From the sequence record NC_106597.1: 64,000 bases of DNA, one strand, 5' to 3'. Below, piece after piece: positions 59,771-63,205 of the stretch (position 1 is its first letter; every line of letters begins with the position of its first letter). The translations under genes and the position numbers were made by a program. This DNA comes from Escherichia phage BB1. Under the pieces are notes generated by a model, which saw only the letters and a list, made by a program, of their open reading frames with translations, had not been told where the DNA came from and did no database searches.

Positions 59771-59998
59771 TTAACATTTTACAGCAGAGCGTTTGCCATT
59801 TCTAGGTGCACCTGGAAGTCGTGCACGTTCTGCCATTCTTCGCTTAATCTTTGAGATATTTTCTAGTGTTTGTTCTTCAGGCTTAATACTTGAAACACTA
59901 CACCACTGATTACCATCCCATGCGGTAATGATCATAACACCATTACTCATGATCTTTTCTGTAAAAGTAATCCTCATTATAGCAACTCGTCTAAGCAA
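59771..59998 (-). CDS. hypothetical protein
   Basis: 75-aa ORF. Confidence 0.3.
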   Translation of the reverse strand: MLRRVAIMRITFTEKIMSNGVMIITAWDGNQWCSVSSIKPEEQTLENISKIKRRMAERARLPGAPRNGKRSAVKC

Positions 59999-60270
59999 GA
60001 GGTATATTTAAGTTTACCATCTTTATCTACTTTGATTTCGACTTCCGCTCGTGGTACTTGACGAACTGCACCATGAATCATCTTATAGTTAATAGACTTA
60101 GACGGTTCATAATCTTTTGGAAAGACTTGCTTAACCGTTACTACCTTGTACCCCTCACGCGGTGTTAGTACAACTACTTGATCACCTTCTTTGATTTTCC
60201 AAGAGCCAGGAAATTCATAGGTATAGCGTTGACCACCAGTTTGGAACACAACAGAAAGATAACGTTTCAT
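59977..60270 (-). CDS. hypothetical protein (97 aa)
   Basis: Directly downstream of a promoter cassette. Confidence 0.4.
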   Translation of the reverse strand: MKRYLSVVFQTGGQRYTYEFPGSWKIKEGDQVVVLTPREGYKVVTVKQVFPKDYEPSKSINYKMIHGAVRQVPRAEVEIKVDKDGKLKYTSCLDELL

Positions 60271-60300
60271 TTGGTTTCCCTCTCATTAATTTATATAAAT

Positions 60301-60329
60301 ATTATAACAATAAATAAGAGAGAAAGCAA
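60301..60329 (-). promoter_or_regulatory. T5-type early sigma70 promoter
   Basis: TTGCTT - 17 bp - TATAAT, leader ...ATAAATTAATGAGAGGG. Confidence 0.65.
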
Positions 60330-60337
60330 ATGAATTT

Positions 60338-60505
60338 TTAATAAAGTTTAGTCACTTCATAAACTATACTACGAGATTCTTTATTACGTTCTATTAAATT
60401 AGCATATGCTTTTTCAGCTTCATTTTTAGTATTAAAGTCTATAACGTGGGAGGTATTCGCTCTATTTGAATAACTATACCAGATAACTACTAATAATTTA
60501 AACAT
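60338..60505 (-). CDS. hypothetical small protein
   Basis: ORF 60338..60532 starts at GTG inside the adjacent tRNA; ATG at 60505 more likely. Confidence 0.3.
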   Translation of the reverse strand: MFKLLVVIWYSYSNRANTSHVIDFNTKNEAEKAYANLIERNKESRSIVYEVTKLY

Positions 60506-60519
60506 AATAGTCCTTAAAT

Positions 60520-60606
60520 TGGTGCTGGGCACAGGATTCGAACCTGCAACGGGATTACTCCTCCTGATTACAAATCAGGTGCATTCAACCATTCTGCCAA
60601 CCCAGC
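60520..60606 (-). tRNA. tRNA, class II-like (long variable arm), anticodon reads TGT; identity uncertain
   Basis: Perfect 7-bp acceptor, T-arm GCAGG-TTCGAAT-CCTGT, encoded CCA, 3-bp D-stem, 16-nt variable region, anticodon stem CCTGA/TCAGG with loop TTTGTAA. Confidence 0.4.
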
Positions 60607-60614
60607 AGAACCCG

Positions 60615-60779
60615 TTATTTCAACGGGATTTCTTTTTCAATAACAGGAGACTTATCAGTCATAACTGTCATTGCCATTTGTTGTAGAAATTCAAAGGTGA
60701 AGGCTACACGCTCTTCACCAATCTCTACTTCTACACGTTTCTTTTGTTTGTCGATCTTGACTTTTAGGTTATCAGCCAT
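60615..60779 (-). CDS. hypothetical small protein (53 aa)
   Basis: Sub-threshold ORF; ATG overlaps the stop of the upstream 83-aa ORF. Confidence 0.25.
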   Translation of the reverse strand: MADNLKVKIDKQKKRVEVEIGEERVAFTFEFLQQMAMTVMTDKSPVIEKEIPLK

Positions 60780-61023
60780 TAGATAGTACAGTACTGGTAG
60801 TTGGCAATACTACAGATGAAGCAACAGTGTTTAAATGCTTTCTCCAGTCTAGGTTAAATTGTTTTCGAAACTCTTCATAAGGTTCTTCTGGATAAAAGCT
60901 AAAACCTCCTTTCTCATCATTCAGGATAACAGAGCCGTCAGTTTGTTCGTATGCTCGGTATGTTTCTCCAATAACAATAACTCGTTTATCGGTACTTTTA
61001 TTACGAAACTCAAAAACGTGCAT
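60772..61023 (-). CDS. hypothetical protein (83 aa)
   Basis: ATG start at 61023. Confidence 0.35.
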   Translation of the reverse strand: MHVFEFRNKSTDKRVIVIGETYRAYEQTDGSVILNDEKGGFSFYPEEPYEEFRKQFNLDWRKHLNTVASSVVLPTTSTVLSNG

Positions 61024-61039
61024 AATGTTTCCTTAAAGT

Positions 61040-61115
61040 TGGAGCGGCTAGAGGGAATCGAACCCTACTCAGCGAGGCTTGGAAGGCCTGCGACACAACC
61101 CGTGTGCTTAACCGC
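61040..61115 (-). tRNA. tRNA-Gly (anticodon TCC; Trp-CCA reading not excluded)
   Basis: Acceptor GCGGTTA/TAGCCGC, T-loop TTCGATT, anticodon loop CTTCCAA, encoded CCA. Confidence 0.45.
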
Positions 61116-61123
61116 TTATTATT

Positions 61124-61199
61124 TGGCTGGAGAAGGAGGAATCGAACCTACCATTAACGGAGTCAAAGGCCGTTGTGCTAACCGTTACACTACTCTCCA
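61124..61199 (-). tRNA. tRNA-Gln (anticodon TTG)
   Basis: Acceptor TGGAGAG/TTCTCCA, anticodon stem ACGGC/TCCGT, loop CTTTGAC, T-loop TTCGATT, encoded CCA. Confidence 0.5.
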
Positions 61200-61205
61200 A
61201 TTATT

Positions 61206-61281
61206 TGGCTGGAGTGCCTGGGATCGAACCAGGAACCTTCGGAGTCAGAGGCCGACGATCTGCCAATTGATCTACACTCCA
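61206..61281 (-). tRNA. tRNA-Gln (anticodon CTG)
   Basis: Acceptor TGGAGTG/CACTCCA, D-arm GATC-AATTGGCA-GATC, anticodon loop CTCTGAC, T-arm CCTGG-TTCGATC-CCAGG, encoded CCA. Confidence 0.5.
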
Positions 61282-62680: not shown

Positions 62681-62757
62681 TGGTGCGTGACAAGGGATTC
62701 GAACCCTCAAAACCCGACTTCTAAGGACGGTATGTATGCCAATTCCATCAATCACGC
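62681..62757 (-). tRNA. tRNA with anticodon reading TAG (Leu-type anticodon in a short-variable-arm scaffold); identity uncertain
   Basis: Acceptor GCGTGAT/GTCACGC, T-arm GAGGG-TTCGAAT-CCCTT, encoded CCA, anticodon stem CCGTC/GTCGG (one mismatch) with loop CTTAGAA. Confidence 0.4.
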
Positions 62758-62762
62758 ATATT

Positions 62763-62841
62763 TGGTGGAGAATAACGGAATCGAACCGTTCTGATGTCCT
62801 CGGTGCAAGCGAGGTGTCCACTCCATGCAGACCCATTCCCC
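62763..62841 (-). tRNA. tRNA-Ala (anticodon TGC)
   Basis: Acceptor GGGGAAT/ATTCTCC with the G3-U70 pair diagnostic of tRNA-Ala; anticodon stem CCTCG/CGAGG, loop CTTGCAC; T-arm AACGG-TTCGATT-CCGTT; encoded CCA. Confidence 0.6.
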
Positions 62842-63126: not shown

Positions 63127-63205
63127 TGGTAGATCGCCTGGGACTCGAACCCAGAACCTTCCGATTAAAAGTCGGATGCTACTAAACCTATTGAGCTAGC
63201 GATCT
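63127..63205 (-). tRNA. tRNA-Lys (anticodon TTT)
   Basis: Perfect acceptor AGATCGC/GCGATCT, anticodon stem TCCGA/TCGGA with loop CTTTTAA, T-arm CTGGG-TTCGAGT-CCCAG, encoded CCA. Confidence 0.55.

What the first reader, a model, noticed from the sequence alone, without database searches (positions are those of the whole stretch)
60520..60606. Atypical 87-nt tRNA: class II scaffold with a TGT-reading anticodon loop
Acceptor stem, T-arm and CCA are canonical, and the 3-bp D-stem plus 16-nt variable region resemble Ser/Leu/Tyr-type tRNAs. The only clean anticodon stem (CCTGA/TCAGG) encloses TTTGTAA, which reads UGU (Thr), a class I identity. A second odd case is 62681-62757, a short-variable-arm tRNA whose anticodon loop CTTAGAA reads UAG, normally a class II Leu anticodon. 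Either my hand folds are off, or the phage encodes tRNAs with unusual identity.
Basis: partly seen in the sequence, partly recalled or inferred. Interest (0 to 1): 0.5.

Follow-up and report, generated by a model that had tools for sequence, protein, structure and literature searches.

The report
Phage threonine tRNA with extra arm
This T5-like phage has a working threonine tRNA built on the long-armed body normally seen only in serine, leucine and tyrosine tRNAs, and that shape, not its host-like anticodon arm, probably protects it from host defence enzymes that cut the bacterium's own threonine tRNA.

Summary
ARAGORN and the Rfam tRNA model both call window 60520-60606 (-) an 87-nt tRNA with anticodon UGU, a 3-bp D stem and a 15-nt variable region holding a 3-bp GUAA-capped hairpin. 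Window 62681-62757 (-) is a 77-nt tRNA-Leu(UAG) with a 5-nt variable loop. Neither fold is a hand-folding error.

The identity is probably ordinary. The Thr tRNA carries the ThrRS determinants (G1-C72, C2-G71, G35, U36). It lacks the tRNA-Ser marks G2-C71, G73 and a 5-bp arm, and the tRNA-Leu D-loop layout.

The same 87 nt are the only tRNA-Thr of phage Bas33 (HildyBeyeler). A July 2026 preprint reports that the Bas33 Thr(UGU) tRNA strongly rescues phages from the P2 OLD tRNase, whereas E. coli thrU does not.

This tRNA still keeps the anticodon-arm motifs that published work links to OLD and PARIS-AriB cleavage. I therefore infer, without a test, that the Ser-like body and extra arm give the resistance.

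Related phage tRNAs with an extra arm read Asn, Trp and Cys codons, and arm-less Leu tRNAs are common in phages. T5 itself has the canonical shape at all three loci. The gene is already annotated, but I found no description of its architecture or what it implies.

The parts
60520..60606 (-). tRNA-Thr(UGU), 87 nt, with a class II-like body
   Evidence: ARAGORN. Rfam RF00005 58.9 bits. 100% identical to bas33_0122 of phage HildyBeyeler.
60570..60572 (-). Anticodon UGU (reads ACA), inside the anticodon arm 60563-60579, CCUGA-UUUGUAA-UCAGG
   Evidence: Coordinates checked. The arm differs from E. coli thrU (ACUGA-CUUGUAA-UCAGU) only at pair 27-43 and at position 32. It keeps U36AAUC|A41 and the paired CUG/CAG motif.
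60548..60562 (-). 15-nt variable region AGGAGUAAUCCCGUU; the extra hairpin GGA-GUAA-UCC lies at 60552-60561
   Evidence: The stem covaries across relatives (GGA/UCC, GGG/CCC, GAC/GUC, AUC/GAU, CCG/CGG) and the loop is mostly GNRA.
60581..60597 (-). Ser-type D arm GCA-GAAUGGUUGAA-UGC (3-bp stem, 11-nt loop)
   Evidence: In the alignment I count 15 of 19 positions identical to the D arm of E. coli serT. In viral contigs the pattern GCARARTGGYTGAATGCA lies in tRNA-Ser in 92 of 107 called tRNAs.
60342..60607 (-). 266-bp cassette (tRNA-Thr87 plus a small ORF) that occupies the place of the 75-nt class I tRNA-Thr of T5
   Evidence: In a BLAST of the window against T5, homology runs 59989-60341 and 60608-61234 and breaks exactly at the 5' end of the tRNA.
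60338..60505 (-). 55-aa ORF of unknown function that starts 14 nt after the tRNA 3' end and travels with it
   Evidence: Matches phrog_15108, E = 6.6e-39. Found just after the tRNA in 6 T5-like loci and not found in the fetched T5 tRNA region.
62681..62757 (-). tRNA-Leu(UAG), 77 nt, class I shape (variable loop GUUUU at 62709-62713)
   Evidence: ARAGORN. Rfam 47.5 bits. The 30 nearest D arms all belong to tRNA-Leu. T5 has an 85-nt class II tRNA-Leu(UAG) at the same place.

Best explanation
The feature is a real phage tRNA that reads ACA as threonine. It is a mosaic. The acceptor end and anticodon arm are of threonine type and carry the elements host ThrRS uses. The D arm is of serine type, and a short GNRA-capped extra hairpin gives the molecule a class II shape.

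Its likely job is to replace host tRNA-Thr(UGU) (thrU). That tRNA is cut in the anticodon stem by OLD-family Toprim tRNases: P2 OLD, which cuts both strands, and PARIS AriB, which nicks at C40|A41.

T5's own class I tRNA-Thr has a changed cleavage site. This allele instead keeps a host-like anticodon arm. I propose that its altered body, meaning the extra arm that emerges next to the cut strand together with the different D loop, stops the nuclease from docking.

Shown here: the structure, its conservation and covariation, the presence of the identity elements, the mosaic make-up, and the allele swap relative to T5.
Shown by others for the Bas33 Thr(UGU) tRNA (identity with the window sequence is my inference): rescue from OLD in vivo.
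Inferred: charging with Thr, and that the body rather than the anticodon arm gives resistance.
For: Structure and reality.

Thr identity:
- G1-C72 and C2-G71 occur in 7 of 7 long-arm Thr tRNAs and 26 of 27 class I phage Thr tRNAs, against G2-C71 in 81 of 89 phage tRNA-Ser.
- The discriminator is A73 rather than the G73 of tRNA-Ser, and the anticodon has G35 and U36. The identity rules are taken from PMC9976931.
- The variable region is 15 nt with a 3-bp stem, against a median of 18 nt and 5 bp in 89 phage tRNA-Ser, only one of which is as short as 15 nt.
- It is the only tRNA-Thr in phage Bas33. ACA makes up about 24% of Thr codons in the window's ORFs.

Function:
- bioRxiv 10.64898/2026.07.10.737580 reports that the Thr(UGU) tRNA of Bas33 gives strong rescue of HK97, HK542 and Bas34 from P2 OLD. 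E. coli thrU gives none and the T5 tRNA gives only partial rescue.
- PMC12409363 reports that Bas33 escapes PARIS when supplied with T5 tRNA-Lys alone, whereas T7, which has no tRNAs, needs Lys plus Thr.

The body as the source of resistance:
- The arm keeps C28-U29-G30 / C40-A41-G42, A37 and a full 5-bp stem. In PMC12445682, putting thrU's anticodon arm into a resistant phage tRNA-Thr abolished protection.
- It also keeps U16, U39 and A41, the AriB determinants in PMC12409363.
- Among the T5-like alleles I examined, the two class I alleles (T5 Thr75 and Asn78) have changed sites (UAAGCA, UAAGUU). The long-arm alleles (Thr87 and two Asn forms) keep the host-like UAAUCA and UAAUCC.
- There is precedent for the variable arm deciding nuclease sensitivity: the tRNA-Tyr of the T5-like phage SP15 against Retron-Eco7, and Septu cutting the tRNA-Tyr arm.
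Against: - No aminoacylation data exist for this tRNA.
- A73, the A15-U48 pair and a 3-bp variable stem are also features of tRNA-Leu. Some leucylation, or serylation through the Ser-like body, therefore cannot be excluded from sequence alone.
- The rescue experiments used plasmid overexpression. They were not done with arm-deletion mutants, and the northern blot showing an intact phage tRNA used the Bas32 tRNA (class I), not the Bas33 one.
- Many class I phage tRNA-Thr(UGU) in other contigs also keep UAAUCA. A host-like arm is thus not specific to long-arm alleles.
- The PARIS paper leaves open that a phage tRNA-Asn (Bas34) is cleaved or insufficient. I did not determine which Asn allele Bas34 carries.
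- That the Bas33 tRNA used in the preprint is this 87-nt sequence is inferred from its being the genome's only tRNA-Thr.
Confidence: 0.62

Rival explanations
1. It is an ordinary codon-supply tRNA whose shape is historical baggage. A tRNA-Ser(UGA)-type gene was recruited to Thr (UGA to UGU is one base), followed by changes in the acceptor stem. The shortened arm persists only because nothing selects against it, and nuclease resistance, if real, has another cause.
For: - The D arm is of Ser type.
- Ser UGA and Thr UGU differ only at position 36.
- Alloacceptor remolding and anticodon shifts are documented elsewhere (PMC4783518, PMC3923123, PMC3113583).
- ACA, CUA and UUA are much used in the window's ORFs, so demand alone could keep these genes.
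Against: - The hairpin is kept by compensatory changes in distant lineages and is nearly always 3-4 bp with a GNRA-type loop. That indicates selection on the arm itself.
- The same body (D arm, variable arm and T arm, 45 of 52 positions identical) carries Trp identity in Erwinia phages, while the acceptor stem and anticodon arm match at only 12 of 32 positions.
- It rescues from OLD although it keeps the published sensitivity motifs.
Confidence: 0.25
2. It is a mistranslating tRNA. The class II body makes SerRS or LeuRS charge it, neither of which reads the anticodon, so ACA is read partly as Ser or Leu, as with nematode nev-tRNAs.
For: - It has a class II shape with a Ser-type D arm.
- A73, A15-U48 and a 3-bp extra stem resemble tRNA-Leu.
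- nev-tRNAs show that such mischarging exists (PMC3333845).
Against: - It lacks G2-C71, G73 and a 5-bp arm for SerRS.
- It has the Ser-type D-loop register and U20a instead of the Leu register and A20a.
- G1-C72 and C2-G71 are invariant, and in the wider family the discriminator tracks the anticodon.
- It is the only phage tRNA-Thr, and ACA is about a quarter of Thr codons.
- Plaque formation is restored to near wild type when host thrU is destroyed.
Confidence: 0.05
3. It is a decoy. Its host-like anticodon arm binds the nuclease while the altered body prevents cleavage, so the tRNA works mainly as a competitive inhibitor rather than as a translational replacement.
For: - The anticodon arm is nearly identical to thrU's.
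- PMC12409363 raises inhibition by overexpressed viral tRNAs as a possibility.
Against: - For the Bas32 tRNA the preprint shows that host thrU is still degraded, which points to replacement, not inhibition.
- Overexpressed thrU itself gives no protection.
- A full set of ThrRS elements and a genomic CCA argue for use in translation.
Confidence: 0.06
4. It is a fold artefact or a decaying pseudogene.
For: The MFE fold is not the cloverleaf.
Against: - Rfam E = 2.7e-11.
- 98 phage records carry it at 90% identity or more.
- Covariation supports every variable helix.
- A functional rescue has been reported.
Confidence: 0.01

Closest known systems
Phage-encoded nuclease-resistant replacement tRNAs (T5 tRNA-Lys/Thr/Asn against PARIS AriB; phage tRNA-Thr(UGU) against P2 OLD)
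   Same: It sits in a phage tRNA cluster, has the same anticodon as a host tRNA that the defence nuclease cuts, and is reported to rescue infection (PMC12409363, PMC12445682, bioRxiv 10.64898/2026.07.10.737580).
   Different: In the described cases escape comes from substitutions in the anticodon stem or loop or from a shortened stem. Here the anticodon arm is host-like and the difference lies in the body, a Ser-type D arm plus an added hairpin. None of these papers mentions that.
tRNA-Tyr of the T5-like phage SP15, whose longer variable loop is needed to neutralise Retron-Eco7 (T5 tRNA-Tyr is reported as resistant for the same reason); Septu also cuts the tRNA-Tyr variable arm
   Same: The variable arm decides whether a defence nuclease acts.
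   Different: tRNA-Tyr is naturally class II, and the nuclease cuts inside the arm. Here an arm is present on an isoacceptor that normally has none, and the known cut sites are in the anticodon stem.
E. coli tRNA-Ser(UGA) (serT) and phage tRNA-Ser
   Same: Nearly the same D arm (15 of 19 positions by my count, with the same 3-bp stem and 11-nt loop) and a GNRA-capped variable hairpin.
   Different: C2-G71 instead of G2-C71, A73 instead of G73, a 3-bp instead of 5-bp arm, A15-U48 instead of G15-C48, and anticodon UGU.
Nematode nev-tRNAs (class II tRNAs with Gly or Ile anticodons, charged with Leu)
   Same: A class II body carrying an anticodon of a class I amino acid (PMC3333845, PMC4300185).
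   Different: nev-tRNAs keep Leu identity and are mischarged. Here the acceptor end matches the anticodon's amino acid, so faithful decoding is expected.
Alloacceptor tRNA remolding / tRNA gene recruitment
   Same: [quoted passage not shown]
   Different: It is known mainly from mitochondria and eukaryotic nuclear genomes and usually stays within one structural class. Here it crosses the class I / class II divide, and the same body recurs with several identities.
Type I tRNA-Leu of Streptomyces coelicolor and animal mitochondria (for the second tRNA, 62681-62757)
   Same: A tRNA-Leu without the long arm (PMC6614811).
   Different: It is phage-encoded and keeps the E. coli-type elements A73, A15-U48, G18G19 and A20a. 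E. coli LeuRS did not charge the S. coelicolor type I tRNA-Leu, so charging of the phage tRNA in E. coli remains to be shown.

Membership tests
tRNA (Rfam RF00005) | Score above the family's gathering score and a cloverleaf with a 7/5 acceptor/T branch | tested here: met
   58.9 bits against 29; ARAGORN cloverleaf.
tRNA (Rfam RF00005) | Helices supported by covariation; tertiary partners U8-A14, G18G19 with the UUCGAAU T loop, and the 15-48 pair | tested here: met
   97.2% of cells paired and 17 of 23 pairs with compensatory change. In the sequences the 15-48 pair covaries (A15-U48 or G15-C48).
tRNA-Thr (substrate of E. coli ThrRS) | G1-C72 and C2-G71 in the acceptor stem | tested here: met
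   Present in the window tRNA and invariant in 9 long-arm Thr sequences, while pairs 3-70, 4-69 and 5-68 covary. Rule taken from PMC9976931.
tRNA-Thr (substrate of E. coli ThrRS) | G35 and U36 in the anticodon | tested here: met
   Anticodon UGU at 60570-60572.
tRNA-Thr (substrate of E. coli ThrRS) | Class I architecture (4-5 nt variable loop, 4-bp D stem) | tested here: not met
   15-nt variable region with a hairpin and a 3-bp D stem. T5's syntenic tRNA-Thr is 75 nt and class I.
tRNA-Thr (substrate of E. coli ThrRS) | Is charged with threonine and decodes ACA | not testable with these tools
   Indirect support only: the Bas33 Thr(UGU) tRNA rescues phages when host thrU is destroyed.
Class II tRNA (bacterial Leu, Ser, Tyr) | Variable region of 10 nt or more that forms a hairpin; 3-bp D stem with positions 13 and 22 unpaired | tested here: met
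Class II tRNA (bacterial Leu, Ser, Tyr) | Anticodon for Leu, Ser or Tyr | tested here: not met
   UGU.
tRNA-Ser (substrate of E. coli SerRS) | Long variable arm of Ser length (about 5 bp or more) | tested here: not met
   3 bp and 15 nt, against a median of 5 bp and 18 nt; 88 of 89 phage tRNA-Ser have 16 nt or more. serT has 16 nt and 5 bp.
tRNA-Ser (substrate of E. coli SerRS) | G2-C71 and discriminator G73 | tested here: not met
   C2-G71 and A73. Phage tRNA-Ser have G1-C72 with G2-C71 in 81 of 89 and G73 in 80 of 89. Rule.
tRNA-Ser (substrate of E. coli SerRS) | Ser-type D arm | tested here: met
tRNA-Leu (substrate of E. coli LeuRS) | A73 and the A15-U48 pair | tested here: met
   Both are present (sequence; rule). 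This is the main reason leucylation cannot be fully excluded.
tRNA-Leu (substrate of E. coli LeuRS) | Leu-type D loop: G18G19 register with U16U17, and A20a | tested here: not met
   The D loop is GAAUGGUUGAA (no residue 17, U at 20a), against AAAUUGGUAGA in leuW.
Phage anti-defence replacement tRNA | Same anticodon as a host tRNA cut by a defence nuclease, and phage-encoded | tested here: met
   UGU in a T5-like tRNA cluster. thrU is the target of P2 OLD and AriB.
Phage anti-defence replacement tRNA | Substitutions at the nuclease's recognition or cleavage site in the anticodon arm | tested here: not met
   It keeps U36AAUC|A41, U16, CUG/CAG, A37 and a 5-bp stem.
Phage anti-defence replacement tRNA | Resists cleavage and restores infection | not testable with these tools
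   Rescue from OLD is reported for the Bas33 tRNA. Cleavage resistance of this molecule has not been measured.
Type I tRNA-Leu (second tRNA, 62681-62757) | Leu anticodon, Leu-type D arm, A73 and A15-U48, with a 4-5 nt variable loop | tested here: met
   13 of 42 unique phage tRNA-Leu in the sample have a variable region of 6 nt or less.

The most novel reading that the evidence does not exclude
Phages may switch the structural class of a tRNA as a general way to escape tRNases that read tRNA shape.

A short GNRA-capped hairpin is added to tRNAs that normally lack an arm (Thr, Asn, Trp, Cys, some Met/Ile). The tRNA can then keep a fully host-like anticodon arm, which suits ThrRS, the modification enzymes and the ribosome, and still not be cut by OLD-family Toprim nucleases. 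Conversely the arm is removed from tRNA-Leu, perhaps to escape nucleases that recognise or cut long arms.

One body (D arm GGCAGARUGGYUGAAUGCA, a mini-arm, and the T arm) would then be a portable chassis onto which different acceptor and anticodon modules have been placed.
Probability: 0.35. Interest if true: 0.8.

Novelty: new variant of a known kind. Interest (0 to 1): 0.6.

Why it matters
Textbooks and recent reviews say that in bacteria only Leu, Ser and Tyr tRNAs have the long arm. Phage tRNA clusters break this rule in both directions and often.
- The long-arm Asn query found 585 phage records matching at 80% coverage or more.
- The long-arm Thr allele is in 98 records.
- The arm-less Leu(UAG) allele is in 162 records.

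The model phage T5 has the canonical shape at all three loci, which may be why this has gone unremarked.

If the added arm is what makes a host-like tRNA-Thr resistant to P2 OLD and PARIS AriB, there would be a second escape route besides anticodon-arm mutation. It would also help locate where these nucleases contact the tRNA. The chassis could be used to design nuclease-proof tRNAs for phage engineering.

The idea can be tested directly with transcripts and enzymes that are already in use in published work.

Tried and rejected
- **MFE folding.** It does not return the cloverleaf for either tRNA. I did not take this as evidence against them, because the cloverleaf is only 2.3 kcal/mol above the MFE and covariation supports it.
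- **BLAST of the 87 nt against 5,426 E. coli genomes.** No match, so there is no host copy.
- **Pattern TGAATGCAN5YTTGTAA in viral contigs.** Almost all 120 hits were chance matches. The tighter pattern gave 10 viral loci. It also gave 16 bacterial hits, none of them a tRNA, and 57 metagenome hits, of which 8 are tRNAs with 6 distinct sequences. The pattern is narrow, so 'phage only' holds only for this D-arm type.
- **Domain neighbour analysis.** The Ser-like result for the D arm of Thr87 is partly circular, because the loci had been fetched with that D-arm pattern. The independent evidence is the isotype count of pattern carriers and the comparison with serT. The Leu D-arm result is not circular.
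- **Literature.** I searched for any description of class II-shaped phage Thr/Asn tRNAs or arm-less phage Leu tRNAs and found none. The word 'variable' does not occur in the main text of the PARIS, OLD (both) or eLife phage-tRNA papers.
- **Supplement of the OLD NAR paper.** It is not held, so I could not check whether this sequence was in their 245-tRNA library.
- **Bacterial Schlafen paper.** It gave no link to tRNA-Leu.
- **Bas34's tRNA-Asn allele.** I tried to identify it, but IrisVonRoten turned out to be Bas32, so the allele stays undetermined.
- **Promoter and terminator scan.** Nothing useful.
Full report
**1. The observation.**
The minus strand of window 60520-60606 reads GCUGGGUUGGCAGAAUGGUUGAAUGCACCUGAUUUGUAAUCAGGAGGAGUAAUCCCGUUGCAGGUUCGAAUCCUGUGCCCAGCACCA. 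ARAGORN calls it tRNA-Thr(tgt), 87 nt.
- a 7-bp acceptor stem;
- a 3-bp D stem with an 11-nt loop;
- the anticodon stem CCUGA/UCAGG enclosing UUUGUAA;
- a variable region A-GGA-GUAA-UCC-CGUU (15 nt, not 16);
- a canonical T arm, A73 and a genomic CCA.

The Rfam tRNA model gives 58.9 bits, E = 2.7e-11. The second tRNA, 62681-62757 (-), is called tRNA-Leu(tag). It is 77 nt long with the 5-nt variable loop GUUUU and scores 47.5 bits.

**2. The phage and the tRNA's distribution.**
The tRNA region matches 619 T5-like phage records. The 87-nt sequence occurs at 90% identity or more in 98 records, which nearly always annotate it as tRNA-Thr. It is 100% identical in Escherichia phage HildyBeyeler, whose locus tags identify it as Bas33.

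T5 itself has a 75-nt class I tRNA-Thr(UGU) at the same place and an 85-nt class II tRNA-Leu(UAG). In a BLAST of the window against T5, homology breaks exactly at the 5' end of the tRNA. A 266-bp cassette (the tRNA plus a 55-aa ORF) replaces the T5 gene.

Allele counts at 90% identity or more in the phage collection:

| Locus | Canonical T5-type allele | Alternative allele |
|---|---|---|
| Thr(UGU) | class I, 75 nt: 310 records | long-arm, 87 nt: 98 records |
| Leu(UAG) | class II, 85 nt: 54 records | arm-less, 77 nt: 162 records |
| Asn(GUU) | class I, 78 nt: 134 records | long-arm query: 585 records matching at 80% coverage or more |

**3. The structure is under selection.**
On 11 long-arm phage tRNAs (Thr, Trp, Cys) the cloverleaf plus the 3-bp variable hairpin is 97.2% paired. 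Compensatory changes occur in 17 of 23 pairs, including all three pairs of the extra hairpin. None of 500 shuffles reaches these values, and sliding the partners drops pairing to 27-42%.

On 9 long-arm Thr sequences alone, including metagenome variants, pairing is 98.3% and 10 of 20 pairs covary. The extra hairpins read GGA-GUAA-UCC, GGA-GCAA-UCC, GAC-GAAA-GUC, CCG-GAAA-CGG, GGG-GAAA-CCC and AUC-GAAA-GAU. In the Asn tRNAs they read AUCC-GCAA-GGAU and GAGC-GAAA-GCUC. In the sequences the 15-48 tertiary pair also covaries (A15-U48 or G15-C48).

**4. The tRNA is a mosaic.**
The D arm (U-GGCAGAAUGGUUGAAUGCA) is of Ser type. In the alignment I count 15 of 19 positions identical to E. coli serT, with the same layout. 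In viral contigs the pattern GCARARTGGYTGAATGCA lies in tRNA-Ser in 92 of 107 called tRNAs. The remainder are long-arm tRNAs with Thr, Trp or Cys anticodons plus a few odd calls.

The acceptor end is of Thr type. G1-C72 with C2-G71 occurs in 7 of 7 long-arm and 26 of 27 class I phage Thr tRNAs, whereas phage tRNA-Ser have G2-C71 in 81 of 89 and G73 in 80 of 89. The anticodon arm is almost that of E. coli thrU.

The variable region is shorter than in tRNA-Ser: 15 nt and 3 bp, against a median of 18 nt and 5 bp. Only 1 of 89 tRNA-Ser is as short as 15 nt.

Against the 87-nt Trp tRNA of Erwinia phage IT22, the body (D arm, variable arm and T arm) is identical at 45 of 52 positions. The acceptor end and anticodon arm match at only 12 of 32. 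Phages that carry such an odd tRNA also carry normal tRNA-Ser genes with other D arms.

**5. Which amino acid.**
According to the identity review PMC9976931:
- ThrRS reads acceptor pairs and the anticodon.
- SerRS reads mainly the long arm, helped by G73 and the acceptor stem, and G2-C71 is conserved in bacterial tRNA-Ser.
- E. coli LeuRS needs A73, A15-U48, G18G19 and A20a, but not the arm.

The window tRNA meets the Thr set. It fails the Ser set at G2-C71, G73 and arm length. It fails the Leu set at the D-loop register and at A20a, although it does have A73 and A15-U48.

In the wider family the discriminator follows the anticodon: A73 for Thr, G73 for Asn and Trp, U73 for Cys. Trp also has A1-U72. 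That is what faithful charging predicts and what anticodon-blind charging by SerRS or LeuRS does not.

The tRNA is the only tRNA-Thr in Bas33. ACA is about 24% of Thr codons in the window's ORFs, from a crude ORF set. I conclude that Thr identity is likely but not proven.

**6. What it does: evidence from others.**
Two OLD-family Toprim nucleases destroy host tRNA-Thr(UGU). PARIS AriB nicks at U36AAUC|A41 and also depends on U39, A41 and U16 (PMC12409363). P2 OLD cuts after the C of the paired CNG motifs, C28UG and C40AG. Resistance of class I phage Thr tRNAs needs both a changed motif and a shortened stem, and giving such a tRNA the thrU anticodon arm abolishes protection (PMC12445682).

A July 2026 preprint expressed the Thr(UGU) tRNAs of E. 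coli, T4, T5, Bas32, Bas33 and HK446. [quoted passage not shown]

In the PARIS study, Bas33 needed only T5 tRNA-Lys to escape, while T7, which has no tRNAs, needed Lys plus Thr. Neither paper, nor the eLife paper on anticodon-loop escape, uses the word 'variable' in its main text.

**7. My inference.**
The window tRNA keeps C28-U29-G30, C40-A41-G42, A37, a full 5-bp stem, U39, A41 and U16. By the published rules it should therefore be cut. It nevertheless rescues, unlike thrU, whose anticodon arm is almost the same. The difference must lie outside the anticodon arm.

The obvious candidates are the extra hairpin, which leaves the core a few nucleotides after the cut at 40/41, and the different D loop. 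The AlphaFold 3 model of AriB places the second monomer on the D loop.

Among the T5-like alleles I examined, the class I forms (T5 Thr75 and Asn78) have altered sites (UAAGCA, UAAGUU). The long-arm forms keep the host-like UAAUCA and UAAUCC. There is also a precedent for variable arms deciding nuclease action, in tRNA-Tyr with Retron-Eco7 and Septu.

This step has not been tested. The rescue used overexpression, no arm mutants exist, and many class I phage Thr tRNAs from other sources also have host-like arms.

**8. The second tRNA.**
The 77-nt tRNA-Leu(UAG) keeps a Leu-type D arm; the 30 nearest D arms in the sample all belong to tRNA-Leu. It also keeps A73, A14, A15-U48, G18G19 and A20a.

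Arm-less Leu tRNAs with UAG, UAA or CAA anticodons make up 13 of 42 unique phage tRNA-Leu in my sample. They also occur in Felixounavirus-like phages. CUA and UUA together are about half of Leu codons in the window's ORFs.

E. coli LeuRS tolerates loss of the arm in minimal substrates, but it failed to charge the type I tRNA-Leu of S. coelicolor. Charging is therefore expected but unproven. Why the arm was lost is unknown, and escape from an arm-reading nuclease is only a guess.

**9. Is it new.**
The gene is annotated in dozens of records, and its anti-OLD activity is in a preprint. What I could not find described is the class II architecture of phage Thr, Asn, Trp and Cys tRNAs, the arm-less phage Leu tRNAs, and the paradox of a host-like anticodon arm in a resistant tRNA.

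The narrow sequence pattern for this tRNA type found no tRNA in 185,579 bacterial and archaeal genomes. I rate it a new variant of a known kind, namely a phage replacement tRNA that escapes a defence nuclease by a different structural route.

Noticed in passing
window 60338-60505 (-): A 55-aa ORF (MFKLLVVIWYSYSNRANTSHVIDFNTKNEAEKAYANLIERNKESRSIVYEVTKLY; phrog_15108, function unknown) starts 14 nt after the tRNA-Thr87 3' end. It accompanies the tRNA in 6 T5-like loci and was not found in the fetched T5 tRNA region. Together they form the cassette that replaces T5's tRNA-Thr.
   Followed up: partly
window 61043-61118 (-): This sequence is identical to T5 tRNA-Gly1(UCC), which the T5 record annotates as convertible into an efficient amber suppressor. 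ARAGORN does not call it, and Rfam gives only 30.9 bits, to the tRNA-Sec model. It is another structurally atypical tRNA.
   Followed up: partly
window 62763-62841 (-): tRNA-Ala(UGC), 79 nt, has G3:U70 but a 7-nt variable loop and an odd D arm. ARAGORN calls it, yet the Rfam tRNA model gives no hit at E <= 1.
   Followed up: no
window 63127-63205 (-): tRNA-Lys(UUU), 79 nt, reads U36AAUCG41. It keeps U39, which the PARIS paper found necessary for AriB cleavage, whereas T5's resistant tRNA-Lys reads U36AAACC41. Whether this allele resists AriB is open.
   Followed up: no
L001 3777-3862 (HildyBeyeler); beyond the window's end: tRNA-Asn(GUU) tRNAs of 83-86 nt carry a 3-4 bp GNRA-capped extra hairpin, G73 and an anticodon arm like that of E. 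coli tRNA-Asn. The query found 585 phage records matching at 80% coverage or more, including T5-likes, 165-175-kb Klebsiella and Enterobacter phages, and Providencia and Proteus phages. tRNA-Asn is the third AriB target.
   Followed up: partly
L004 2992-3078 (Erwinia phage IT22), L080, L051, L097, L090: 87-nt tRNA-Trp(CCA) and 85-89-nt tRNA-Cys(GCA) are built on the same Ser-type D arm and mini-arm. Their discriminators (G73, U73) are canonical for their anticodons, and Trp also has A1-U72.
   Followed up: partly
L001 1829-1905 and 6791-6867; L257 12831-12907 and 17739-17815: Both Leu tRNAs (UAA and UAG) of Bas33 and of Bas32 are 77-nt class I forms, so these phages carry no long-arm tRNA-Leu at all. 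T5 has a single class II tRNA-Leu.
   Followed up: partly
window 60611-60627: The hairpin CCCGUUGAAAUAACGGG lies 4 nt upstream of the tRNA 5' end on the minus strand. On the plus strand it is scored as terminator-like. Its role is unknown.
   Followed up: no
L267, L271, L302, L281, L298 (metagenome contigs): Further long-arm Thr(UGU) tRNAs of 80-87 nt come from diverse metagenomes, with different stems in the extra arm and one with U73. The type is therefore not confined to phages of Enterobacterales and Aeromonas.
   Followed up: partly
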